64,000 nt of DNA from an uncultured Acidobacteriota bacterium (GTDB taxonomy: Bacteria; Actinomycetota; Acidimicrobiia; Spongiisociales; ZC4RG35), in contig CAWILU010000003.1 of the NCBI GenBank assembly GCA_963837055.1, positions 71,524-135,523 of the forward strand, given 5' to 3'. A program made the position numbers and the translations under genes. Positions 34,980-50,915 of the stretch are shown here, piece by piece (position 1 is the first letter of the stretch; each line of letters opens with the position of its first letter). Below the pieces are notes generated by a model, which saw nothing but the letters and a program-made list of their open reading frames with translations, made no database searches and was not told the origin of the DNA.

Positions 34980-35058
34980 TGGGGTGACCGACGGGATTCG
35001 AACCCGCGACTTCCTGGACCACAACCAGGTGCTCTAACCGGGCTGAGCTACGGCCACC
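34980..35058 (-). tRNA. tRNA-His (anticodon GTG), with G-1 and encoded CCA
   Basis: The minus strand reads GGUGGCCGUAGCUCAGCCCGGUUAGAGCACCUGGUUGUGGUCCAGGAAGUCGCGGGUUCGAAUCCCGUCGGUCACCCCA. Anticodon loop UUGUGGU. The extra 5' G pairs with C73. Confidence 0.9.
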
Positions 35059-35083
35059 ATGTCTTCGAATGGGTCTTCCCTTG

Positions 35084-35157
35084 CGCCCCCGGGAGGACTC
35101 GAACCCCCAACCTGCGGATTAGAAGTCCGCCGCTCTATCCAATTGAGCTACAGGGGC
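35084..35157 (-). tRNA. tRNA-Arg (anticodon TCT)
   Basis: The minus strand reads GCCCCUGUAGCUCAAUUGGAUAGAGCGGCGGACUUCUAAUCCGCAGGUUGGGGGUUCGAGUCCUCCCGGGGGCG. Anticodon loop CUUCUAA. Confidence 0.9.
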
Positions 35158-35194
35158 GAGGGCCAGGTCTGTCCCCGGAGGGCTTACCCATTCG

Positions 35195-35266
<72 letters not shown>

Positions 35267-35290
35267 GGACGAGACATTCTACGGTCCCAG

Positions 35291-35364
35291 TCGGGCTGGT
35301 CGGACTCGAACCGACGACCTCTTGCTCCCAAAGCAAGCGCGCTACCAAGCTGCGCCACAGCCCG
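35291..35364 (-). tRNA. tRNA-Pro (anticodon TGG)
   Basis: The minus strand reads CGGGCUGUGGCGCAGCUUGGUAGCGCGCUUGCUUUGGGAGCAAGAGGUCGUCGGUUCGAGUCCGACCAGCCCGA. Anticodon loop UUUGGGA. Confidence 0.9.
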
Positions 35365-35472
35365 TTGATCGGGTCAGGGTACTTCGCACCCAATTCCTGT
35401 CCCACCCCATTCGTATCGTCGAACCATGGAGGTGGGGACCGATTTTATGACCGGATCGCCTCATGGGACTAC

Positions 35473-36158
35473 ATGTCCCGCTGGGAGCGGTCCGAGCTGG
35501 GAAAGGACCTTCGCCGCCTCGGACTCTCCTACGGCGAGATCATGGATCTGATTTCGGTGAAGAAGTCCACCCTGGCCACCTGGTGCCGGGATGTGATGCT
35601 GAGCGAGGAGCAATACAGAGCGATTCGAAATCGGACTGGCTCGCGGGAAGGGATTCCGAGGGACACGAACCGAAAACGGCGCCAACAGATCGCTGAGATC
35701 AGGGAACGCGCCAGACGGCGTGTTCCGATTCTGATCGATGATCCGCTTTGGGTCGCGGGAACGATGCTCTACTGGGCCGAGGGTGCCAAGACGCCCGGCA
35801 GCCTGAGCGTGGCAAACGCAGACCCACGCGCCTTGAGGCTTTCGTCGCTTGGGTGCGGACATATCTCCGGCAGGACGCTCAGTTCTCTCTGCATCTTCAC
35901 CTTCATGAGGGAAATGACGAACCATCGGCGCGTGCTCATTGGATAGACGAAACCGGCCTGATCGCGGCGAACTTCCATCGGACCTTCATCAAGCCGGCCG
36001 GCACGGGTCACCGCAAGAACCACTTGGAGCACGGGGTCTGCACTGTCAAGCTGCGCCGACCTGCAGATCCGTGGAACATCGTGATGGAATGGATCGACAC
36101 GTTGTCTGAGCAGTTCGAGATTGACGTCCGTCCACTTAGACTTAGGTCGGGCCGCTAG
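35473..36158 (+). pseudogene. hypothetical HTH plus LAGLIDADG-like-motif protein between the two tRNA groups, with a frameshift near 35830-35840
   Basis: Frame A: MSRWERSELGKDLRRLGLSYGEIMDLISVKKSTLATWCRDV...PLWVAGTMLYWAEGAKTPGSLSVANADPRAL. Frame B continues (E)AFVAWVRTYLRQDAQFSLHLHLHEGND...GVCTVKL... to a TAG at 36156-36158. Restoring one G in ttgagg joins the two frames. The last 10 nt overlap the 5' end of tRNA-Lys. Confidence 0.5.
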
Positions 36159-36225
36159 CTCAATTGGCTAGAGCAGGACCCTCTTAAGGTCAAGGTTGTG
36201 GGTTCGAGTCCCACGCGGCCTACCA
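36149..36225 (+). tRNA. tRNA-Lys (anticodon CTT), CCA encoded
   Basis: GGGCCGCUAGCUCAAUUGGCUAGAGCAGGACCCUCUUAAGGUCAAGGUUGUGGGUUCGAGUCCCACGCGGCCUACCA. Anticodon loop CUCUUAA. Confidence 0.9.
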
Positions 36226-36227
36226 CC

Positions 36228-36253
36228 AAGCCCTCGGCCAGCCCCGAGGGCTT
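36228..36253 (+). terminator. 10-bp stem-loop immediately after tRNA-Lys
   Basis: AAGCCCTCGG-ccagcc-CCGAGGGCTT, followed by GTTCAAT (weak U-tract). Confidence 0.45.
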
Positions 36254-36279
36254 GTTCAATGGGAGAATGATCACCACAC

Positions 36280-36364
36280 GCGGGTGTGGCGGAACTTGGC
36301 AGACGCGCAGGGTTTAGGTCCCTGTGGGCGAAAGCCCGTGGAGGTTCAAATCCTCTCACCCGCA
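36280..36364 (+). tRNA. tRNA-Leu (anticodon TAG), long variable arm, no encoded CCA
   Basis: GCGGGUGUGGCGGAACUUGGCAGACGCGCAGGGUUUAGGUCCCUGUGGGCGAAAGCCCGUGGAGGUUCAAAUCCUCUCACCCGCA. 85 nt. Anticodon loop UUUAGGU. Confidence 0.92.
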
Positions 36365-36508
36365 CAAGGCTTTTCGGTGGTGGGCGCTCGCCGCCAGAGG
36401 CCAGACTGCAACCCTTTTGCAACCATCACCGAAGAGCTGGCTTCCAAGCTCGCCCCGGGCCCCGCCGGAGTGCCGGCACAGGAAGGCTTGACGGCGAGGG
36501 AGGTGATG

Positions 36509-36667
36509 ATGGCCCAGGCCGGCTATCAGAGTCCACACGACGAGTTCGGATGGCTAAAACCGAATTTCCTCGTGGAGCAGCTCGAAGAGGGTGCCCGGCA
36601 GCGTGAGGCCGAGGCGAAGGAGTGGGCCGTCGCGATGATGCAGGACGACCTCGGCGGCAAATCGTGA
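36509..36667 (+). CDS. hypothetical small protein (52 aa)
   Basis: GAGGGAGG Shine-Dalgarno directly upstream of tandem ATGs at 36506 and 36509. MAQAGYQSPHDEFGWLKPNFLVEQLEEGARQREAEAKEW... No family recognised. Confidence 0.35.
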   Translation: MAQAGYQSPHDEFGWLKPNFLVEQLEEGARQREAEAKEWAVAMMQDDLGGKS

Positions 36668-37188
36668 GGGGTCAGGCAGTGTTCCTGGTCGACGCGGCGG
36701 GGGCCGGCAGACTGACCGTGGGAAAACGACTCAGCGTCGAACTGGATCAGAACGTCCAAGATCGGTTTGGCAAGTCTCGCCCCAGGCCCTCACCATTGCG
36801 GTACAGCCGAAGTGCTCGCTGATGGTCGGATGGCGCTGTGGATCTCGGTTCGGAGGCGGGACAATCGGCCAAGGGTTTGCTTGAGCTCGACATCCTTGAG
36901 GCGGTGCTGGTGGGACCCGAGCCGACGGTCAGGCTCCAGGTGTCGTGATACGAAGTAGCAGCGAAGTCCTTAAGAGCGAGGCTCCGAACCCCCTGCTCGG
37001 GTCGGCACCTAGGTGCGGTCTGTGTCTCTCAATCCCAGCAGCCGCCAGGTGACGAGACCGCCGAGAACCCCGACAGCGAGGGGTATGAGGATGTCGAAGT
37101 TGTTAACTTCAACTACTGGGTTTCGCGGGCGCCCCACAAGGGAAAGGAAGGCAATGCCCTCATCACTCTTGCTCTCAAGTCGGCCGCA

Positions 37189-38100
37189 TTGAAGACCGGC
37201 TTGGTACTGGGTGGTGGGGGTTTGGCCGGGGTCTCCTTCCATGCCGCCGCCCTCGCAGCATTGGAGATCGATCTCGGTTGGGATGCCCGCAGAGCGGACG
37301 TGATACTCGGAACCTCCGCCGGAGCCCTCACCGGCGCACTTCTTCGTCTCGGGGTGAGTGGCACGGATCTCGCCGCGTTCGTCTCTGGGGCGCCGCTTCC
37401 AGCCAATCACTTCCTCGTGCGCCAAGGAGTTCGGCTGCCCGAGCTGCCCCCGGTGAGATGGCAGCATTTCCTGCCTCGCCCCCGGCACATCCGTCGGCTG
37501 GGCAGCGCACTTAGGAGCCCGGCGAGCGCGCTGTTCCGTCTGCTCCCTGATGGCCAGGTCGACCTGAGGCCTCACTTCGACTTCCTCGATCACCTCGATG
37601 ACGAATGGCCTCCCGGCGACCTCCGCATCTGCGCAGTCAGCGAGGATGACCATGAGTTGGTGGTGTGGGGTGGCGGCGGCGCGGTCCATCTGACTGACGC
37701 CATCGTGGCCTCCTCCAGCATCCCCGGATATGCCACCCCCGTCGTGATTGGCGACCGGTCCTACGTCGATGGTGGTCTCCGCTCCCCGACAAACGCAGAC
37801 GTCCTCATCCACTACAACCTCGACCTAGCTCTGGTCCTCTCCCCTATGACACCGGTCTCAGGATCGAACTTGGGCCTAACCGGCATTTTGACGCGCTGGG
37901 CCGGGCGACGTTTGGCCCGCGAGGTGCGCATGTTGCGACGGGCAGGAACCGAGGTGATCGTCCTCCGCTCGCCGGCCGCGCTCGGACGGGCTGCGACGAA
38001 TCCATTTGTCTCGCTTCACAAAAGGCCTCGCGGGGCGGTTGCCGAAGCATTCCTCTCGGTTGGAGAGCAGACTCCGTTACTAGGCGAGTTGCTCGGGTAG
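37189..38100 (+). CDS. patatin-like phospholipase
   Basis: Oxyanion-hole motif LVLGGGGLAG, nucleophile elbow GTSAGA, and catalytic Asp motif YVDGGLRSPTN. 303 aa. TTG start with no obvious RBS. Confidence 0.85.
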   Translation: MKTGLVLGGGGLAGVSFHAAALAALEIDLGWDARRADVILGTSAGALTGALLRLGVSGTDLAAFVSGAPLPANHFLVRQGVRLPELPPVRWQHFLPRPRHIRRLGSALRSPASALFRLLPDGQVDLRPHFDFLDHLDDEWPPGDLRICAVSEDDHELVVWGGGGAVHLTDAIVASSSIPGYATPVVIGDRSYVDGGLRSPTNADVLIHYNLDLALVLSPMTPVSGSNLGLTGILTRWAGRRLAREVRMLRRAGTEVIVLRSPAALGRAATNPFVSLHKRPRGAVAEAFLSVGEQTPLLGELLG

Positions 38101-38499
38101 TACTCAGGCGTTTCGCAGTAGCGCCCCAAAGTAATCGAAGACTCAAGTACCGGCTCCCGTATCCCGTGCACCGCCCAGCCGGGAGGACGGCATGCCCTCC
38201 CGGCCCGGACATGTGTTCGTTCCAAGGATCTTGGCGGGCCTGCTCCGTGGCCCTGCTGAAAACGTGTCATGCACGGTGGCGCTCGTCGGGTGACTGGACC
38301 CGGAGACCCCCCGACCGGCCTGATCTTCCAGTGATTCGACGACTCGGGGGTTCCCGCTCCCGCGCCGAATCGATGTGTGGCAACGAGTCGCACACAAGTA
38401 GTCCCCAACGAGCCAACTGTTCAGAGTCCGGTCGGAAGGATTCCCCCATCGGCCCAATCGTCCGGCGATGCTCCTCCATGAAATGGACCGCCCGGGCTG

Positions 38500-39894
38500 T
38501 CACGGACCAAGAGTCCAGTTCCCATCTGCGGTGATCTCGAGGAAAGCAGTACCTGCTGGCACAACATCGCTCGCGTTGTATGGGCCGATCTCGTTGACAA
38601 TGAGATCGTGCAGGGCGCCCGAATTCCTGAGTGCCCAGATGACAAAGTTGCTCGTGCCGTGGTGGGTGGAATGCATGACGGACCCGGCCTGATAGCGCAC
38701 GATCTCATCTCCATGGCCGTTCAGCGACCCGGTCATGACGCGAGCCTGAGTCATCGGCCGCACCGTGAGGGTCCAGCTCCCATCAGCGTCGATCTCGAGA
38801 TGCCGGACTGGATCGAGACCGCTAGAGCTAAACCAACCGGTGTTCAGTCCTCGTCTGCCGCTGTACGATCCGATCTCGTTGACCAAAAGGTCGATTTGAC
38901 CGAAAGCTCCATTTAGCGACCAAACAATGAAGTTGCTTGACCCATTGTGAGCCAGATCGATTAGGGCAGGCGCATCGCCGGGAACTGCCAGGTCGACCAC
39001 CGCGTTTCCGCTGCCATTGATGGTGAATGCCTGAAAGCCGCCCGGTGGAGGGGGTGGTGGTGCGACCGTGGCACATCCCGACGGCGGGCTACCTCCTCCA
39101 GGAAGAGCACCGAAGTCGCCGGCCACCGGCAGCCCGGTGGGCACCCCGTAGGTAAGCGTAACGTCCGCGACCCCCTGGGTGTTGGTGTGGCGGAGGTAGC
39201 TGGTGCAGGTCGACGGGCGAAACAGGCCCACCGACTCGGGGCCAGGCACTCCTCGAGTAGCCCATTCGGCGGCGACGATCTTGTCGCCCGGATCGCCAAA
39301 TATGAATTGTGAGTCGGCGTTGCCCTGAGTGTGGGTCTGTCGGAAGTAGACCAGCCCGGTCGACTCCCGATGCAGGCCGATCGTGTCGACCCCATCATTG
39401 TTGAAATCGCCGACAAACGGCTTGTCGCCAGGATTGCCGAAGTAGTAGGCGAAATCGGCTGCACCGAGACCGCCCTCATTGGCTCCAAGCGTGTTGATGA
39501 TGAAAACCCGGCTCTCGGAGGGCCGGTAGATACTCACCGTGTCACAGCCATCCCCATCGAAGTCGCCGGCCAAAGGAATATCGCCTGGGTTGCCGAAAAA
39601 GAATCGGATGTTGGCGGCACCCTGACTGTTCAAGTTTCTCAGATAGACAAAGCCGTCGGACTGCCGATAAAGCCCAGGCGTCTCATCTCCGTCGCAGTCC
39701 CAGTCTCCCACCATTGGAAGATCGCCAGGGTTGCCGTAAAAGAACCTGGTGGTCGCACCGGTTGCCGGGTCTCGGAGGTACCACTCTCCGGTCGAAGTGT
39801 CGACGATGCCGATCGACCCTTCCTGAGCCAAAGCAGGTGCGGCAACTCCCAGGACGAGCACCAATCCCAGGAGGACCGTTACTCGGCGACGCAT
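38500..39894 (-). CDS. secreted protein: about five N-terminal FG-GAP/VCBS-like repeats plus a duplicated ~85-aa C-terminal domain
   Basis: GGGAGG RBS, then ATG at 39894 and signal peptide MRRRVTVLLGLVLVLGVAAPALAQ. The repeat module (FFGNPGD.P.AGDFDGDGCDT...RN..TQG.AD) is the same as in CDS 4091..6283. C-terminal internal duplication: HNGSSNFIVWSLNG...LLVNEIGSY...EIDADGSWTL and HHGTSNFVIWALRN...LIVNEIGPY...EITADGNWTL. Confidence 0.8.
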   Translation of the reverse strand: MRRRVTVLLGLVLVLGVAAPALAQEGSIGIVDTSTGEWYLRDPATGATTRFFYGNPGDLPMVGDWDCDGDETPGLYRQSDGFVYLRNLNSQGAANIRFFFGNPGDIPLAGDFDGDGCDTVSIYRPSESRVFIINTLGANEGGLGAADFAYYFGNPGDKPFVGDFNNDGVDTIGLHRESTGLVYFRQTHTQGNADSQFIFGDPGDKIVAAEWATRGVPGPESVGLFRPSTCTSYLRHTNTQGVADVTLTYGVPTGLPVAGDFGALPGGGSPPSGCATVAPPPPPPGGFQAFTINGSGNAVVDLAVPGDAPALIDLAHNGSSNFIVWSLNGAFGQIDLLVNEIGSYSGRRGLNTGWFSSSGLDPVRHLEIDADGSWTLTVRPMTQARVMTGSLNGHGDEIVRYQAGSVMHSTHHGTSNFVIWALRNSGALHDLIVNEIGPYNASDVVPAGTAFLEITADGNWTLGP

Positions 39895-40240
39895 TGAGCC
39901 TCCCACTCGGTTCGTTGTGGAAACCTACTCCAAGGTCGTCACCGAAGGCACCCGAAAAGGGATTGACGACACTGAGGGTTCGGGCTCCCCACCAATGGCG
40001 ACCGAACCTCCTCGTACAGATGCAACTCCTACGGAGACGCCCGCACCACCATCCGAGTAAGTTGAGATTGTGCGGGGTGGCACCTTCGGGTGTCTGTCAT
40101 GAACCCGCACAACTGAACCCCCGAAGACTCGTCGAACCACTTCAAGTACGGCTAGCCATTGGGGGGTTCGTTCGCCGGGGTGTTTGTTAGCCCCTCATGC
40201 CGGGTACGGATGGGCCACTTCAACCTGGGAGGACGAACCT

Positions 40241-40384
40241 ATGGCAACAATCCTTTGGATTCTGGCGGCGATCCTGGTGATCGCGGGGATCGCGGCCATT
40301 CTTAGGGGTCAACTGTTGTGGGGCATCGTTCTGATCGTGGTAGGACTGATAGTCGGACCAGGCGGCGTTAGCGTCTTTACCTGA
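40241..40384 (+). CDS. small two-helix membrane protein ending in a GPGG motif (47 aa)
   Basis: GGGAGGA Shine-Dalgarno 7 nt upstream of the ATG at 40241. MATILWILAAILVIAGIAAILRGQLLWGIVLIVVGLIVGPGGVSVFT. Confidence 0.7.
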   Translation: MATILWILAAILVIAGIAAILRGQLLWGIVLIVVGLIVGPGGVSVFT

Positions 40385-40804
40385 AACCCTTCCACGTTCA
40401 CTAGTGCCGAGCGAAACCCTCATGACCATTGGGGGTTTCGTTTATGGAGTACTCGGGGAAGTGCTTCGGGAATCGAAGTCCACGCGTCCCCAGAAAACCG
40501 TCGGCCTCGATTCCACAAGACGAACCCCCGTGGTATGGGGAGAAGCCACGGGGGTTCTGTCATGTCACTCCCTTTTGGGTGGCTGAGAGCAATGCTGTTG
40601 GGCACGCCCGTGTTCTGGAAGCGGCCCGGACCGCACCTTCGGATGTTGTTACGAAACCCGCATAAACCTCCGGAGACTCGTCGAACCACCATTTGCAACC
40701 CAACCAGTCGGAACAGCCTGGTACACCCCGGTAGCCCGACTCTCCCACTCCCCCGGATTAGTTGACTATTCGGTACTCACCGGGACACCCCGGGATGGGT
40801 CTGA

Positions 40805-40864
40805 CAGGGTTTAGGTCCCTGTGGGCGAGAGCCCGTGGAGGTTCAAGTCTTCTCACCCGCACCA
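40805..40864 (+). repeat. orphan 3' half of tRNA-Leu(TAG) (att-like direct repeat), with encoded CCA
   Basis: cagggtttaggtccctgtgggcgagagcccgtggaggttcaagtcttctcacccgcacca compared with 36308-36364: 3 mismatches in 57 nt. The sequence upstream cannot form the acceptor or D arms. Confidence 0.9.
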
Positions 40865-40866
40865 GA

Positions 40867-41022
40867 TCAACTGACGACGAACCCGACGACGATCATCGCC
40901 GCGACCGCCAAGCCGATCCAGAAGAACAGCCACTTGTTGTCGCGCCAACTCTCCCACCAGAGCTTGTCCGGATGCTTCTCGCGCAACCGCTCCTCATAGG
41001 AGTCTCGATCGTCTTGGCTCAT
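40867..41022 (-). CDS. 51-aa single-TM micro-protein translationally coupled to ndh
   Basis: Hand translation: MSQDDRDSYEERLREKHPDKLWWESWRDNKWLFFWIGLAVAAMIVVGFVVS. Its ATG overlaps the ndh stop as ATGA. It is below the ORF-track length cutoff. Confidence 0.5.
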   Translation of the reverse strand: MSQDDRDSYEERLREKHPDKLWWESWRDNKWLFFWIGLAVAAMIVVGFVVS

Positions 41023-42278
41023 GGCTCACCCTTTTCCGGTAGCGGCGGTAGCCCGGTGATGATCCGGGCCCCGCGGCGGAAGGTCAAGTAGCTCCAAGCC
41101 CAGGAGATCAACACCAGGACCCGGTTGCGAAATCCGATCAAATAGAAGATGTGGATCGCCAGCCAGGCGAGCCAGGCGAAGAACCCGCCGAACCTGATCC
41201 GCCCGAAGTCCGCCACTGCCCTCGCCCGACCGATGGTCGCAAGCGAGCCCTTGTCCCGGTAGCGGAACGGCTGTCTCTCCTCGAGATGCAGGTCGGATTC
41301 GATCATTTGACCGGCGTGACGGCCCATCTGCATTGCTGCCGGCGCCACGCCGGGTACTCCGGAGACCGTGGCCAGGTCGCCAACCACGAACACCTCGAGG
41401 TGCCCCGGGACCGATAGGTCGTCTGTCACCGGAACCCGACCGCTTCGATCGGTCTCCAGCCCCAGCATCCCTCCCAGGTCCGACGCGTGCACGCCCGCCG
41501 CCCACAACACCAGGCCCGCCTCGATCCGCTGGCCATCGGTGAGAGTGACACCGCCTTGATCGATATCCTGAACCATGGTTCCGGTCAACACTTCCACTCC
41601 GAGCCCTTCCAACTGTCGTCGAGCGCTCTCGGAGAGGTCCGGCGGATACACGGGAAGGACGAAGGGAGCGCCTTCGACGAGGAAGACCCGCGCCTGCGAC
41701 GGATCGATGGTGTCGAATTCCTCACCCAGGGAGTGGACCGCGATCTCGATCAGCGCTCCCGCGAGCTCTACCCCGGTCGGGCCGCCCCCGACCACGACGA
41801 AAGTGAGCAGACGATCGGCGTCCCCTGGATTTCGCTCCGCCTCCTCGAAAGCAGCCAGAATCCGCCTTCGCATCACCAGGGCGTCCTCCAGCGTCTTCAG
41901 CCCTGGTGCCAGCTCTTCCCATTCGTCGTGGCCGAAGTAGGAATGCGCCGCCCCGGTTGCCAGGATCAGATAGTCGTAACCGAGGACCGAGCCATCGTCG
42001 AGTGTCACCGTCCTCGAGTCCAGCTCGAGCCCGGTCACCTCGGCGAGGAGCACGCTCCTCACGTTTTCCTGATCCCGGAATATCGAGCGGATCGGATATG
42101 CGATGTCGCTCGGATTGAGTGCGGCCGCCGCCACCTGATAGAGCAATGGTTGGAACAGATGGAAGTTGCGCCTGTCCACGATGGTGATCTCGACGGGTGC
42201 CCGGCGCAGCGCCTTGGCCGCGTTCAATCCGGCAAAGCCCGAGCCGACGATGACAACCCGAACAGGGTTGTTACTCAC
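41019..42278 (-). CDS. ndh: type II NADH:quinone oxidoreductase (NDH-2)
   Basis: VVIVGSGFAGLNAAKAL...FHLFQPLLYQVA...VVVGGGPTGVELAG...GD. 419 aa. Confidence 0.9.
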   Translation of the reverse strand: MSNNPVRVVIVGSGFAGLNAAKALRRAPVEITIVDRRNFHLFQPLLYQVAAAALNPSDIAYPIRSIFRDQENVRSVLLAEVTGLELDSRTVTLDDGSVLGYDYLILATGAAHSYFGHDEWEELAPGLKTLEDALVMRRRILAAFEEAERNPGDADRLLTFVVVGGGPTGVELAGALIEIAVHSLGEEFDTIDPSQARVFLVEGAPFVLPVYPPDLSESARRQLEGLGVEVLTGTMVQDIDQGGVTLTDGQRIEAGLVLWAAGVHASDLGGMLGLETDRSGRVPVTDDLSVPGHLEVFVVGDLATVSGVPGVAPAAMQMGRHAGQMIESDLHLEERQPFRYRDKGSLATIGRARAVADFGRIRFGGFFAWLAWLAIHIFYLIGFRNRVLVLISWAWSYLTFRRGARIITGLPPLPEKGEP

Positions 42279-42856
42279 CGGCCTGCCCCAAGCGCCTCCG
42301 CCAGAGAGCGCAGTGCGCGAGCGCGATGCGAAAGGGTGTTCTTTTCGGCAATTCCCATCTCGGCCAAAGTACGGCCGGCCACCTCGAACACGGGGTCGTA
42401 GCCGAATCCGCTCCCACCCCGGGGCGCAACGGTGATCACACCGTCGAGCTCGCCCTTCGCGACGACCTCCGCCCCGTCCGGCATCACCAGTGCAACGGTG
42501 GTGCGAAAACGCGCCCGCCGATCCTCCTTGCCCTTCATCTCACGAAGGAGCAGGTCGACGTTCGACGCGTAGGTCGCGCCTGGGCCGGAGTAACGGGCGG
42601 TTCGCACCCCGGGAAAGCCGCCGAGCGCTGCGACCTCCAGCCCGGTGTCGTCGGCGATCGCGGGAAGCCCAACCGCATCCATCACCGATCGGGCCTTGAG
42701 CAGGGCATTTTCCTCGAGCGTGTCCCCGGTCTCGTCCACGTCGGGCCAGTCGAGACCACGCACGATCTCGCCGACGAGCCCTACCTCGCCGAGCACTTCC
42801 TCGATCTCCGAGATCTTGTCCCGGTTCTTGGAGGCCACGACCACACGCGGGATCAC
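42275..42856 (-). CDS. rdgB: non-canonical purine NTP pyrophosphatase (RdgB/HAM1 family)
   Basis: VVASKNRDKISE...ETGDTLEENALLKA...ADDTGLEV...GGFPGV...GFGYDPVF. Confidence 0.9.
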   Translation of the reverse strand: MIPRVVVASKNRDKISEIEEVLGEVGLVGEIVRGLDWPDVDETGDTLEENALLKARSVMDAVGLPAIADDTGLEVAALGGFPGVRTARYSGPGATYASNVDLLLREMKGKEDRRARFRTTVALVMPDGAEVVAKGELDGVITVAPRGGSGFGYDPVFEVAGRTLAEMGIAEKNTLSHRARALRSLAEALGAGR

Positions 42857-49054: not shown

Positions 49055-49076
49055 TGGTGGAGGTGCGGGGAGTCGA
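49055..49076 (-). repeat. 22-bp copy of the ssrA 3' end (att-like direct repeat)
   Basis: tggtggaggtgcggggagtcga is identical to 50565-50586, the acceptor and T-arm end of the tmRNA. Confidence 0.9.
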
Positions 49077-49299
49077 TACCTGTCAGCTGGAATCGTCCGC
49101 TGTCGTTCCGTACCCCACTGTCACGCAGTAGCAGGGAGGATCCGCACTCCGGGGCGAGGATTCCGCGGCAGATCGCCGGGGTGCCTCGCGCCCAATCTGG
49201 TCAACCCTCGGCTCTCCATTACCAGCTGAAACCTGAAGACTCGTCGAACCACTCCGGGTCCGGCCACCATTGGGACTCGCTATGTCGAGAGCGGCGGAA

Positions 49300-50199
49300 T
49301 CAGGGACTGGCGCTGTCCTCAAGAGGAATAGTCAGCGCGTCGATTTCCTCTCCCGCATCACTCACCGCAGAGACGGTGAGCTCTTGTTCCTGTTGAGTCA
49401 GGGTGAGAAAGTTGTGAACCTCTTCCCCAACGATCCGAGGAGTATGGCCGCTGGGACAGTCGTCCAGTTCATGCAAATCCCGCCCGCCCCCGCCCGTCAC
49501 TACATAGGGCACCCCATTTTCCTCGAATCGCTGATAGGTGTGAGCGTGCCCACTGAGCACGAGAATCACGTCATCGTCGAAGAGTGGCAGCCAGTCCGCT
49601 TTTACCGCCTCGTCATCGTCATGAGCAGAGCAGCTGAAGGGCGGATGATGGAATACGACAATGGTGGGCACATCGATGCGCTCCATCTCCGATTCCAGAT
49701 AGGAGAGCTGAGCCGGTGAGTCCACGTTGTTGGAATCCAGTATCAAGATTTCGGTGTCACCCCACTCGATGGTGGCCCAACGGGGCGGGTTGCCAAATGC
49801 CGCCTTGACCTCGGCGATGCGGTCGGACGACTCGACGTCGTGATTCCCCCAGGTGATCCAGAAGTCGACACCAGCGGAACGAGTCCATTGAAACGGATGC
49901 ATGATCTCGTCTCGGTCGTCTTCATACATATTGTCCCCGGTCGTGAGAATTGCCTGCACGGCATGAGAGGAGGCATACCCCTCCATTTCGGAGGCGATCA
50001 TCGACTCGTCTTCGTCCCCCGATCCCCAATCCCCGATAACTAGCAGAGAGCCAGGCTCTGCATCAGTCTGGTCATAAAACGATTGGGCGACACTCTGAGT
50101 TGGTTCGACGGAGCGCGGTTCAGTGGAGTCGGATAAGTCGCATGCGACCAACAAGGCGCACAGCAATACTGCCCCCAGAAAGCATCCCCACCTCTTCAT
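49300..50199 (-). CDS. metallophosphoesterase (calcineurin-like) lipoprotein
   Basis: The ATG at 50199 gives MKRWGCFLGAVLLCALLVAC (lipobox LVAC). Motifs: LVIGDWGS, GDNMY, ITWGNHD, VVFHHPP, LSGHAH. Confidence 0.85.
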   Translation of the reverse strand: MKRWGCFLGAVLLCALLVACDLSDSTEPRSVEPTQSVAQSFYDQTDAEPGSLLVIGDWGSGDEDESMIASEMEGYASSHAVQAILTTGDNMYEDDRDEIMHPFQWTRSAGVDFWITWGNHDVESSDRIAEVKAAFGNPPRWATIEWGDTEILILDSNNVDSPAQLSYLESEMERIDVPTIVVFHHPPFSCSAHDDDEAVKADWLPLFDDDVILVLSGHAHTYQRFEENGVPYVVTGGGGRDLHELDDCPSGHTPRIVGEEVHNFLTLTQQEQELTVSAVSDAGEEIDALTIPLEDSASP

Positions 50200-50543
50200 G
50201 TCTGAACAAGTGTACGGGTGGCCCGACACCGAGCAATTCTGGGGGTTTCGTTGTGCGAGGATCAGGGAAAGCGAACTCGGGACGGACCTTGCCTGGCGAG
50301 CAGTTCGGTCAGGCCGATGGGTTCACGAGGATATGAAAGCGCCTGGCCGAGGTGGCGGGTGTCCAGGTCTTGCGGTCACACAGCGGAGCCTGCCACGGTT
50401 GGGTCACCCGGGCGCGGGAAACCGGGGTCTCGATGAAGGTTGTGCAGGAGCAGTGGTGCCATGCCTAGCTGGCGCCACCGGCGACATCTACGGCCACGTT
50501 TCAGAGGAAGTCGCCGGCTATGAGTCGAAAAGGTCATTGCATA

Positions 50544-50561
50544 GGGAAGATTTCTCTTCCC
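50544..50561 (-). terminator. 7-bp stem-loop 3 nt downstream of ssrA
   Basis: GGGAAGA-tttc-TCTTCCC. No clear U-tract. Confidence 0.35.
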
Positions 50562-50564
50562 TTC

Positions 50565-50915
50565 TGGTGGAGGTGCGGGGAGTCGAACCCCGGTCCGTCG
50601 AGCCCTCAGCGCCGGCATCTCCGAGCGCAGTCGTCAGCGAGCTTTCGGCAACAGGAACTCTGACGACGAGTTTCCCTGCGCCTATCCGGAGTTGACTTGG
50701 CCCCACGGTCCCGAAACCCCGTGAGGGGCATCCCGCTGTGCGGCGCCCGGCCCCAGCCGTGCGGGATTCGGCTGGGCGGACGGGCTACTTATTTAGGCAG
50801 CCAGTGCGAAGTTGTCTTCGGCACTTATTGGTTTTTCCGGTTTGTTGACGAGGCCCCGGAGACCCCGGCTCGCTTCCAACGCCTCAACACTCGACGTCGA
50901 AACCGTTTCACCCCC
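50565..50915 (-). ncRNA. ssrA: tmRNA (SsrA)
   Basis: The minus strand begins GGGGGUGAAACGGUUUCGACGUCGAG and ends ...CCGGGGUUCGACUCCCCGCACCUCCACCA (tRNA-Ala-like with G3:U70). The internal tag ORF GCC GAA GAC AAC UUC GCA CUG GCU GCC UAA gives (A)EDNFALAA. smpB is adjacent. Confidence 0.92.

What the first reader, a model, noticed from the sequence alone, without database searches (positions are those of the whole stretch)
36280..40864. tRNA-Leu(TAG) is followed by a 4.5-kb insert ending in a second copy of the tRNA 3' half, with no integrase
Positions 36308-36364 (anticodon stem to discriminator of the intact tRNA-Leu) recur at 40805-40861 with only 3 mismatches by eye (gaaag/gagag; caaatcc/caagtct). 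The ORF track shows the same duplication as the shared peptide GFRSLWA(K/R)ARGGS in ORFs 36286..36606 and 40762..41091. The distal copy has no 5' half. It carries an encoded CCA that the functional gene lacks. It lies 2 nt from the stop of the 51-aa ORF that closes the core ndh operon. This is the classic footprint of site-specific integration into a tRNA 3' end. The cargo is a 52-aa ORF, a patatin-like lipase, an FG-GAP secreted protein (convergent with the lipase), a GPGG micro-membrane protein and about 1.3 kb of ORF-poor repeat-bearing DNA. No recombinase gene is present, so the element is either decayed and immobilised or mobilised in trans. A lipase paired with an adhesin-like protein on a tRNA islet is worth functional attention.
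Basis: partly seen in the sequence, partly recalled or inferred. Interest (0 to 1): 0.7.

Follow-up and report, generated by a model that had tools for sequence, protein, structure and literature searches.

The report
Decayed integrase-less islet at tRNA-Leu
The 4.4 kb between tRNA-Leu(TAG) and a displaced copy of the tRNA's 3' half is the worn-down remnant of a mobile element that once integrated there; it has lost its integrase and is an ordinary, though well-preserved, example of a known kind.

Summary
tRNA-Leu(TAG) lies at 36280-36364. Its 3' part (36308-36368) recurs at 40805-40865 with 57/61 matches, in direct orientation and without a 5' half. The copy carries an encoded CCA that the live gene lacks. 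No recombinase domain occurs in any frame between the two copies.

The integration reading is supported by comparison with other genomes. This Acidimicrobiia locus (ndh - gap - tRNA-Leu - tRNA-Lys) is syntenic in relatives. One relative has an empty site. At least five other genomes carry small islets flanked in the same way. Related loci carry a tyrosine integrase with an arm-binding domain directly beside the tRNA, and several islets keep only its last 30-60 codons.

Both ends of the window's islet are homologous to the attP arms of an intact 8.1-kb sibling element. They include 11-bp-spaced TGCAACC heptamers that I read as arm-type integrase sites.

The interior is a mosaic and not one cargo. 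A sister strain (about 99% identical) lacks the 1.77-kb FG-GAP-like module. The patatin gene occurs alone in three unrelated contexts. So the lipase-adhesin pairing is not supported.

Verdict: a decayed tDNA islet that keeps both att sites but no integrase (CIME-like). It is a new member of a known kind and of low to moderate interest.

The parts
36280..36364 (+). Intact tRNA-Leu(TAG). Its 3' part, 36308-36364 (anticodon stem to discriminator), is the attL core. The trailer is CAA and not CCA.
   Evidence: ARAGORN; Rfam RF00005 at 51.3 bits; repeat family D1.
36365..36426 (+). P'-arm remnant of the former element. It holds two direct TGCAACC heptamers (36407-36413 and 36418-36424, 11-bp period), which are putative arm-type integrase sites.
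   Evidence: Conserved about 43 nt 3' of tRNA-Leu in L081, L004, L007, L124 and 16 metagenome loci. Lies between the tRNA and the integrase stop in intact elements L091 and L125. Homologous to the L125 P' arm.
36427..37096 (+). Strain-specific filler that includes a 53-aa ORF (36506-36667). This is where the integrase gene lies in intact relatives.
   Evidence: Replaced by 247 unrelated nt in sister strain L081. No Pfam hit and no integrase remnant.
37118..38100 (+). Patatin-like phospholipase gene module. ORF at 37189-38100 (TTG start), preceded by a conserved 12-codon uORF (37154-37192) whose stop overlaps the start codon.
   Evidence: PF01734 at 60 bits. GGGxxG, GTSAG and DGG motifs are visible in the translation. 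The same module at 89-90% nt identity lies in three unrelated contexts, L120, L121/L122 and L123, with homology ending at the gene borders.
38158..39927 (-). FG-GAP-like secreted-protein module (ORF 38500-39906, minus strand). It is a separate insertion/deletion difference between strains.
   Evidence: Absent from sister strain L081, with a junction at a 4-nt CTCC microhomology. The N-terminal 265-aa module is shared at 70-89% identity with many paralogues that have other C-terminal domains. Structure model has pLDDT 91.5.
39928..40687 (+). ORF-poor backbone shared with the sister strain. It contains the GPGG-motif small membrane protein gene (40241-40384), terminator-like hairpins (40115-40169, 40413-40439, 40522-40557) and two copies of a 20-mer repeat (40121, 40670).
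   Evidence: 99.3% identical to L081. NF040511 at 82.9 bits. The GPGG gene is 89% aa identical in the L118/L099 islet. Hairpin z-scores are -2.7, -5.1 and -5.8. 20-mer repeat.
40688..40804 (+). P-arm remnant. It holds one intact TGCAACC heptamer (40694-40700; the partner heptamer is degenerate) and a conserved box, TTGACTATTCGGTACTCACCGG (40762-40783).
   Evidence: Alignable with the region 5' of the tRNA fragment in L004, L089/L092 and L102/L114, in L100 (sequence printed) and in L118 (blastn). Also alignable with the P arm of intact element L125.
40805..40864 (+). Displaced 3' fragment of tRNA-Leu (attR core) with encoded CCA. It has no 5' half.
   Evidence: 57/61 identity to 36308-36368. 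No tRNA call. The empty-site relative L015 and other heptamer-free relatives encode CCA.
40867..42278 (-). Chromosomal flank (B' side). It comprises a 51-aa membrane ORF (40867-41022) whose start overlaps the stop of the type-II NADH dehydrogenase gene (41019-42278).
   Evidence: Pyr_redox_2 + NDH2_C. Synteny with 11 relatives. The 51-aa ORF is found only in L081 and L113 (76% aa).

Best explanation
The segment 36365-40864 is a decayed integrative element, a tDNA genomic islet.

Proposed history:
1. An element encoding a heterobivalent tyrosine integrase (arm-binding N-domain plus catalytic domain) recombined its attP with the 3' part of the tRNA-Leu(TAG) gene.
2. The element-borne copy of the tRNA 3' part now completes the live gene. 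Its trailer is CAAGGCTTTTCGG, with no CCA.
3. The original CCA-bearing 3' end was pushed 4.5 kb away, next to ndh.
4. The integrase and the other backbone genes were later deleted.

What remains of the element is the two att cores, the P' arm with a pair of TGCAACC heptamers, a partly eroded P arm, and probably the GPGG small-membrane-protein gene. The rest of the interior (patatin module, FG-GAP-like module, filler) arrived or was reshuffled by separate illegitimate recombination events and differs between strains.

Shown: the repeat, the absence of a recombinase, the empty site, sibling islets, intact sibling elements, arm homology and strain-level mosaicism.

Inferred: the direction of the original event, that the heptamers are integrase arm sites, and that the islet is now immobile unless an integrase is supplied in trans.
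For: 1. Direct repeat of the tRNA 3' part, 57/61, starting in the anticodon stem.
2. Conserved synteny tmRNA...rdgB-ndh-[gap]-tRNA-Leu-tRNA-Lys in 11 Acidimicrobiia genomes, with a gap of 3 nt (L015, empty) to 2.5 kb.
3. The same architecture (full tRNA plus 3' fragment, 1.5-2.4 kb apart, no integrase) in L004, L089/L092, L100, L102/L114 and L118/L099, and in sister strain L081.
4. Intact integrases (PF00589 + Arm-DNA-bind_4 PF14657) immediately 3' of tRNA-Leu(TAG) and convergent with it in L091 and L116. Integrases at the same locus in L124 and L127.
5. C-terminal integrase remnants in islets L109, L009, L102/L114, L097 and L099/L118. These show the decay series.
6. L125, picked by integrase homology alone, is an intact 8.1-kb element with 58-nt tRNA-derived direct repeats. 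It has TGCAACC repeats in both arms at the same distances from the core. The window's two ends are homologous to those arms.
7. The heptamer changes to CGCAACC beside the more divergent integrase of L127.
8. Among related loci, a CCA-encoding tRNA end goes with absence of the heptamers and a CCA-less end with their presence. The window's displaced fragment has CCA.
9. The islet is the most atypical 4.4-kb stretch of the window by tetranucleotide usage, with GC 0.617 against 0.632.
10. Published principle: integration splits the tDNA, the island restores it, and the displaced fragment marks the far end (PMC4383910). Pairs of direct arm-type sites flank the cores of actinobacteriophage attP sites (PMC3203893).
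Against: - No integrase remnant survives inside this particular islet, so its descent from the L091/L125-type family rests on the arms, the core and one shared small gene.
- The P arm keeps only one good heptamer.
- L007/L088 have the P' heptamers together with a CCA-encoding tRNA and no fragment. The CCA rule is therefore not absolute, and the motif alone could be read as a native feature of the locus.
- In each genome the two copies share that genome's own variable-arm sequence. This needs either elements long adapted to their host lineage or gene conversion. I did not resolve this.
- Integrase binding to TGCAACC has not been tested.
Confidence: 0.85

Rival explanations
1. The islet is still a working mobile unit, a cis-mobilisable element. 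It carries no integrase of its own, but its attL and attR are intact enough for a cognate integrase from a sibling element elsewhere in the cell or community to excise and reintegrate it. On this view it serves as a tRNA-linked platform that shuttles single-gene modules.
For: - Both cores are present, and the anticodon stem-loop segment (the usual crossover zone for cores that start there) is identical in the two copies.
- The P' heptamer pair is perfect.
- Arm sequences are the best-conserved parts of many otherwise unrelated integrase-less islets.
- Cognate integrases are common in related metagenomes, with >2000 homologues.
- Elements that keep att sites but have lost their integrase (CIMEs), and their transfer in tandem with a functional element, are documented in streptococci (PMC5704250).
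Against: - The sister strain keeps the islet at the same place with the same att ends. It differs only by internal insertions and deletions, which looks like vertical inheritance plus decay.
- The P arm has lost one heptamer, and the core has 3 mismatches.
- There is no intact cognate integrase in the 64-kb window. The only other hit is a fragment by the tmRNA gene.
- No circular junction or strain-level empty site was found.
Confidence: 0.12
2. The distal copy is the remains of a second, tandem tRNA-Leu gene, or of a local segmental duplication, that lost its 5' half. It would have nothing to do with site-specific recombination.
For: tRNA genes are clustered here (seven tRNA genes lie in 34980-36365), and tRNA gene fragments are common in prokaryotic genomes (PMC9897764).
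Against: - The fragment starts at the same tRNA position (anticodon stem) in six independent genomes.
- In the window it is preceded by sequence homologous to the P arm of an intact integrase-bearing element.
- No relative has two full tRNA-Leu(TAG) genes at this locus.
Confidence: 0.02
3. The arrangement is an assembly artefact, with a repeat-induced chimera joining unrelated contigs of a metagenome bin.
For: The source is evidently an uncultured Acidimicrobiia genome. All close relatives are metagenome-assembled.
Against: - An independent assembly (L081, ENA ERZ25039456, a 430-kb contig) has the same attL, attR, patatin gene and ndh junctions at 98-99% identity.
- Sibling islets occur in many other assemblies.
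Confidence: 0.01

Closest known systems
tDNA genomic islands as defined by Islander (Hudson, Lau & Williams 2015, PMC4383910; Williams 2002 sublocation classes)
   Same: An intact tRNA gene lies at one end and a displaced 3' tDNA fragment in direct orientation at the other. The identity block begins in the anticodon stem, which is the anticodon-centred class. The tRNA is restored by element DNA. A related genome has an empty site.
   Different: There is no integrase gene, so Islander's own filter would reject it. At 4.4 kb it is very small. The interior has been largely replaced.
CIMEs (cis-mobilisable elements) of streptococci: decayed ICE/IME that keep attL and attR but have lost integration and transfer genes (PMC5704250)
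   Same: It keeps both att sites, lacks a recombinase and transfer genes, and intact sibling elements with the same site specificity exist. Islets of this type recur at one hotspot.
   Different: The phylum is different (Acidimicrobiia). No evidence of mobilisation or of accretion with an incoming element was seen here. One arm is partly eroded.
attP organisation of lambda-type and actinobacteriophage (L5, Giles, Cluster K) heterobivalent tyrosine integrases (PMC3203893)
   Same: The core overlaps a tRNA 3' end. Short direct repeats at about 11-bp spacing lie in pairs on both sides of the core. The integrase has an N-terminal arm-binding domain. In L091, L116 and L125 the 3' end of the integrase gene abuts the P' arm, as in integrated lambda.
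   Different: The sites are inferred only from comparison, and no binding data exist. I recalled from memory an L5 arm-site consensus beginning TGCAAC, but a search for that string (TGCaaCtcYy) in the paper library found nothing. Treat it as unverified.
Intact sibling elements found here: L125/L126 (8.1 kb, in tRNA-Leu(GAG)) and L091 and L124 (in tRNA-Leu(TAG))
   Same: They share the integrase family's att architecture, the heptamer motif, the distances of the arms from the core and, for L091/L124/L127, the same target gene.
   Different: They carry an integrase, an XRE-type regulator, an HTH_17 (excisionase-like) protein, an AAA_25 and/or Prim-Pol replication protein and an HNH protein. The window's islet has none of these.

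Membership tests
tDNA-integrated genomic island (Islander definition) | Intact tRNA/tmRNA gene at one boundary | tested here: met
   tRNA-Leu(TAG) at 36280-36364.
tDNA-integrated genomic island (Islander definition) | Displaced fragment of the same tDNA, in direct orientation, at the other boundary | tested here: met
   40805-40864, 57/61 identical, same strand.
tDNA-integrated genomic island (Islander definition) | Integrase gene inside the island | tested here: not met
   Six-frame Pfam scan finds only Patatin. tblastn with the cognate integrases finds nothing in 36365-40804.
tDNA-integrated genomic island (Islander definition) | Absent from some related genomes (empty site) | tested here: met
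   In L015 the tRNA-Leu lies 3 nt from the ndh stop. Gap length varies in 11 relatives.
CIME (cis-mobilisable element) | Retains attL and attR | tested here: met
   Both cores are present. The P' arm has a perfect heptamer pair and the P arm has one heptamer plus the conserved box.
CIME (cis-mobilisable element) | Has lost integration and transfer genes by decay of an ICE/IME | tested here: inconclusive
   The genes are absent. A decay series is seen in sibling islets with integrase stubs, and the arms match an intact element. This islet itself holds no gene remnant.
CIME (cis-mobilisable element) | Can be excised or mobilised by an integrase supplied in trans | not testable with these tools
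   Needs junction reads or recombination assays. The sister strain shows no excision.
Heterobivalent tyrosine-integrase attP (lambda/L5 type) | Integrase with a separate N-terminal arm-binding domain | tested here: met
   PF14657 + PF00589 in L091 and L116. Precomputed domains for P0129, P0135, P0155 and P0183. This applies to the sibling elements and not to the window.
Heterobivalent tyrosine-integrase attP (lambda/L5 type) | Arm-type binding sites on both sides of the core | tested here: inconclusive
   TGCAACC pairs or triplets lie at fixed distances on both sides in L125 and in the islets, with a variant heptamer beside a divergent integrase (L127). Binding was not tested.
Patatin-like phospholipase (PF01734) | HMM above the gathering score, plus the Gly-rich loop, GxSxG serine and DG[GA] aspartate | tested here: met
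   60 bits against a cutoff of 27.7. LGGGGLAG, GTSAG and VDGGL are present in the translation.
CBASS / defence-system phospholipase effector | Match to the effector model at its cutoff, with a partner cyclase | tested here: not met
   NF041079 at 20 bits against a cutoff of 200. PADLOC effector at 23 bits over 60 residues only. No cyclase is nearby.
FG-GAP repeat proteins (integrin-alpha-type beta-propeller) | Match to FG-GAP/VCBS repeat HMMs, or a clear propeller fold match | tested here: inconclusive
   No Pfam, NCBIfam or PDB sequence hit. The model has five 4-stranded repeats (residues 26-259) at pLDDT above 90. The best Foldseek matches are weak, with TM <= 0.34.
GPGG-motif small membrane protein (NF040511) | Equivalog HMM above its cutoff | tested here: met
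   82.9 bits against a cutoff of 33, over the full length 1-47.

The most novel reading that the evidence does not exclude
Integrase-less islets at tRNA-Leu(TAG) in Acidimicrobiia are maintained platforms and not just wreckage. On this reading, selection keeps both att cores and the TGCAACC arm sites so that integrases of co-resident sibling elements can excise, move or stack them. The platforms collect self-contained single-gene modules (the patatin gene with its coupled uORF, members of the propeller-plus-variable-C-domain secreted family, the GPGG protein). This would be a tRNA-linked, integron-like gene-exchange hotspot serviced in trans.
Probability: 0.12. Interest if true: 0.5.

Novelty: new member of a known kind. 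Interest (0 to 1): 0.27.

Why it matters
For annotation, it flags 36365-40864 as accessory DNA of foreign origin in an otherwise conserved core neighbourhood. Integrase-dependent island finders would miss it.

It also explains why the live tRNA-Leu lacks an encoded CCA while its fragment has one.

More broadly, the comparison defines a previously undescribed (as far as I could find) family of small tyrosine-integrase elements that target tRNA-Leu genes in uncultured Acidimicrobiia. The family has a testable candidate arm-site motif, and a graded decay series runs from 8-11-kb intact elements to 1.5-4.4-kb integrase-less islets.

None of this changes current understanding of how such elements work.

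Tried and rejected
- Exact-protein look-ups for the window's ndh and FG-GAP-like products found nothing. Only the 51-aa ORF led to a sister contig.
- A scan of viral contigs for the tRNA 3' end returned five loci. Three carry tRNA-Leu fragments with no complete tRNA, and two of these (L082, L083) have an adjacent integrase-like ORF. All are AT-rich sequences unrelated to this high-GC lineage. They illustrate the principle but are not relatives.
- The att-plus-heptamer pattern has no match in viral contigs.
- Rfam found nothing in the ORF-poor DNA.
- I first read the L007/L088 FG-GAP-like gene as an inverted orthologue, implying an inversion. The homologue search showed it is a paralogue that shares only the N-terminal module, so I dropped that idea.
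- I considered the 20-mer CCGRAGACTCGTCGAACCAC as an att-arm element because it occurs only in the two islets. Its orientation is inconsistent between the islets, two of the three copies do not fold, and it is species-specific. It remains unexplained.
- A defence-system reading of the patatin gene was rejected.
- A literature check for the L5 arm-site consensus I recalled (TGCaaCtcYy) found no paper, so I do not rely on it.
- tblastx between the islet and the intact elements gave only arm and GPGG-gene matches. The remaining hits are low-identity noise linked by sum statistics.

Full report
**1. The observation**

The window encodes a complete tRNA-Leu(TAG) at 36280-36364/5 on the plus strand (ARAGORN; Rfam tRNA model at 51.3 bits). 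The stretch 36308-36368, from the 5' side of the anticodon stem to three bases past the discriminator, recurs at 40805-40865. The match is 57 of 61 bases, on the same strand, 4497 nt downstream. It is the longest repeat in 35000-42500.

Upstream of 40805 there is no similarity to the tRNA 5' half. Neither ARAGORN nor Rfam at E<=1 sees a tRNA there.

The live gene runs ...CCCGCA-CAA and the distal copy runs ...CCCGCA-CCA. Two bases then separate the distal copy from the stop codon of the 51-aa ORF on the minus strand.

**2. No recombinase**

I translated every stop-to-stop segment of at least 45 aa in all six frames of 36366-40804 (61 segments) and scanned them against Pfam. The only family found is Patatin. 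tblastn with the integrases later found in sibling loci gives no hit inside the islet, even at E<5.

**3. The neighbourhood and its relatives**

The flanking gene at 41019-42278 is a type-II NADH dehydrogenase (Pyr_redox_2 + NDH2_C). It is a single gene and not an ndh operon.

Using it as a probe, the closest genomes are uncultured Acidimicrobiia at 71-82% aa identity. The order tmRNA ... rdgB - ndh - [gap] - tRNA-Leu(TAG) - tRNA-Lys - unknown ORF - tRNA-Pro/Gly/Arg/His is kept in them. The gap between ndh and tRNA-Leu varies widely:

| Locus | Gap between ndh and tRNA-Leu |
|---|---|
| L015 | 3 nt (empty site; tRNA encodes CCA) |
| L002 | 0.46 kb |
| L001 | 0.69 kb |
| L008 | 0.9 kb |
| L009 | 1.2 kb |
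| L005 | 1.3 kb |
| L007 | 1.6 kb |
| L006 | 2.2 kb |
| L004 | 2.5 kb |
| window | 4.5 kb |

The gap contents are unrelated between these loci. L004 has its own tRNA 3' fragment 2.1 kb from the full gene.

**4. A sister strain shows the interior is a mosaic**

The 51-aa ORF led to L081, an independent 430-kb contig that is 98-99% identical in the core. It has the same full tRNA, the same distal fragment, the patatin gene and the ORF-poor segment. Its islet, however, is only 2.2 kb. There are two differences:
- Window 38158-39927, the whole FG-GAP-like gene with its flanks, is missing. The junction sits at a 4-nt CTCC microhomology.
- Window 36427-37096 is replaced by 247 unrelated bases.

The patatin module (37118-38100) recurs at 89-90% nt identity in three contigs with entirely different neighbours (L120, L121/L122, L123). 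Homology there starts about 70 nt upstream of the start codon and ends at the stop codon. The upstream stretch holds a conserved 12-codon uORF whose TGA overlaps the TTG start.

The FG-GAP-like protein belongs to a large Acidimicrobiia family. In this family a 265-aa N-terminal module (70-89% identical between members) is fused to many different C-terminal domains. The gene beside tRNA-Leu in L007/L088 is such a paralogue.

The lipase and the 'adhesin' are therefore independent modules and not a conserved pair.

**5. The parent element family**

Just 3' of the live tRNA (36404-36426) lies GACTGCAACCCTTTTGCAACCAT, which contains two TGCAACC heptamers 11 bp apart. The same motif follows tRNA-Leu in L081, L004 and L007.

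A metagenome scan for tRNA end + 30-60 nt + motif returned 33 loci. Sixteen of them are tRNA-Leu(TAG) genes of this lineage. Their contents fall into three groups:
- **Intact integrases.** L091 and L116 carry a complete tyrosine integrase directly after the motif, convergent with the tRNA. Its domains are Arm-DNA-bind_4 PF14657, SAM-like and Phage_integrase PF00589. In L091 it is followed by an XRE-type regulator and an AAA_25 protein.
- **Integrase remnants.** L104 has a partial copy. L109 has a frameshifted copy. L009, L102/L114, L097 and L099/L118 keep only the last 33-59 codons.
- **Flanked islets without an integrase.** L089/L092, L100, L102/L114 and L118/L099 are, like the window, flanked by a full tRNA and a 3' fragment.

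Together these form a decay series.

**6. An independent test of the motif**

I searched with the L091 integrase (>2000 homologues) and looked at loci chosen only by protein similarity.
- **L125/L126.** An intact 8.1-kb element in tRNA-Leu(GAG) with 58-nt direct repeats (98%). It encodes an integrase, an XRE-type regulator, an HTH_17 protein, an AAA_25 protein and an HNH protein. It has three TGCAACC heptamers between the tRNA end and the integrase stop, and a TGCAACC pair about 120 nt inside the far repeat.
- **L124.** The integrase lies at the very same tRNA-Leu(TAG)/Lys/Pro/Gly locus, with the P' heptamer pair.
- **L127.** The integrase is 65% identical, beside tRNA-Leu(TAG) and tig-clpP-clpX. 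It has the same arrangement but with CGCAACC heptamers.
- **L128.** The integrase is 58% identical. The locus has a triplet of heptamers.

About 115 nt 5' of the displaced fragment, L004, L089, L100 and L102 all read GAYTGCAACCATTTTGCAACCCAACC, followed nearer the core by a TTGACYNTNCGGTACT box. The window and L081 keep the second heptamer (40694-40700) and the box (40762-40783), but the first heptamer is degenerate.

tblastx aligns the window's 36367-36426 and 40693-40783 with the two arms of the intact L125 element.

In actinobacteriophages, pairs of about 11-bp direct repeats flanking the attP core are taken as arm-type integrase sites (PMC3203893). The heptamers here fit that role, but binding is inferred and not shown.

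**7. Direction of the event**

Published principle: integration splits the tDNA, island DNA restores it, and the displaced fragment marks the far end (PMC4383910).

Here the empty-site tRNA (L015) and three other relatives without the heptamers (L001, L005, L006) encode CCA; two further heptamer-free relatives (L002, L008) do not. Most tRNAs followed by the heptamers end CA-AAGG... or similar, without CCA. These are the window, L081, L004, L124, L127 and most of the metagenome loci. The window's displaced fragment has CCA.

The simplest reading is that the distal fragment is the original chromosomal 3' end and that the live gene's 3' part came with the element.

Two loose ends remain. L007/L088 combine CCA with the heptamers. 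In each genome the two copies share that genome's own variable-arm sequence.

**8. Other properties**

- Composition: the islet has GC 0.617 against 0.632 for the window. It has the largest tetranucleotide distance of any 4.4-kb stretch apart from windows that overlap it.
- The 47-aa ORF (40241-40384) is a GPGG-motif small membrane protein (NF040511, 82.9 bits). It is 89% identical to one in the L118/L099 islet, so it may be original backbone.
- The ORF-poor DNA holds terminator-like hairpins with GAACCCCC/GGGGGTTC stems (z-scores as low as -5.8). These occur nowhere else in the window.
- The patatin protein has the Gly-rich loop, GTSAG and DGG motifs. It does not match defence-system effectors at meaningful scores.

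**9. Verdict**

This is a decayed, integrase-less tDNA islet that keeps both att sites, the kind called a CIME in streptococci (PMC5704250). It derives from a family of small tyrosine-integrase elements that target tRNA-Leu genes in Acidimicrobiia.

It is not a lipase-adhesin cargo unit. Whether it can still be moved in trans is open: the crossover-zone sequence and the P' arm are intact, the P arm is eroded, and the sister strain shows only vertical inheritance.

It is a new member of a known kind, useful for annotation and as an entry point to an undescribed element family. It is not surprising to a specialist.

Noticed in passing
window 49055-50586: A second decayed tDNA islet. The last 22 nt of the tmRNA gene (50565-50586; gene 50565-50915, minus strand) are repeated perfectly at 49055-49076. 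Between the copies lie a tyrosine-integrase C-terminal fragment (50316-50474, plus strand, 54% identical to residues 300-349 of the L091 integrase, convergent on the tmRNA 3' end) and a 309-aa ORF (49300-50229, minus strand) with a hydrophobic N-terminal segment and no family match.
   Followed up: partly
window 38500-39906 (-): The 'FG-GAP' protein's N-terminal ~265 aa is an unannotated module, 70-89% identical in many of the 120 best Acidimicrobiia homologues listed. These homologues carry different C-terminal domains (Amidase_2, Beta_helix/NosD, Excalibur, Beta-lactamase2, CAP, SNase, PF27111). It has no Pfam, NCBIfam or PDB sequence match. The AlphaFold model (pLDDT 91.5) shows five 4-stranded repeats followed by two beta-sandwich domains, and Foldseek matches are weak. 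It may be a conserved surface-anchoring or targeting module with swappable effector domains.
   Followed up: partly
window 35059-36158 (+): An ORF with no known family lies between tRNA-Pro and tRNA-Lys at the same place in all relatives. It is a single 238-aa ORF in L015 (11491-12207). In the window it is split by a frameshift near 35823-35841, and it is also broken in L081. Window 35612-36146 does not align at all with the 98-99% identical sister strain, and the adjacent tRNA-Lys/tRNA-Leu region is only 86% identical.
   Followed up: partly
window 40121-40140, 40670-40689, 49233-49252: A 20-mer, CCGRAGACTCGTCGAACCAC, occurs three times in the window, against 0 expected by chance. All copies lie inside the two decayed islets, and among the fetched loci it occurs only in sister strain L081. 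Copies A and B share about 60-90 nt. Only copy A folds into a hairpin. Its function is unknown.
   Followed up: partly
window 37154-37192: A conserved 12-codon upstream ORF (MPSSLLLSSRPH*) precedes the patatin gene. Its TGA stop overlaps the TTG start codon (TTGA). The uORF and its Shine-Dalgarno-like AAGGGAAAGGAAGG are conserved in all three other genomic contexts of the gene. This suggests translational coupling or leader-peptide control.
   Followed up: no
L125 366-403 and 3084-3121: Beside the intact 8.1-kb element in tRNA-Leu(GAG) there is a third partial copy of the att region, 2.7 kb further on (38 nt, 95%). This suggests a tandem array of an intact element plus an older decayed islet at that tRNA.
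   Followed up: no
window 40805-40869 (minus-strand reading): The displaced tRNA fragment begins 2 nt after the stop of the ndh-orf51 unit. In the empty-site relative L015 the antisense of the whole tRNA abuts the ndh stop. The antisense tRNA hairpins might serve as the 3'-end structure of that transcript, which could help explain why the fragment persists. This is speculation and was not tested.
   Followed up: no
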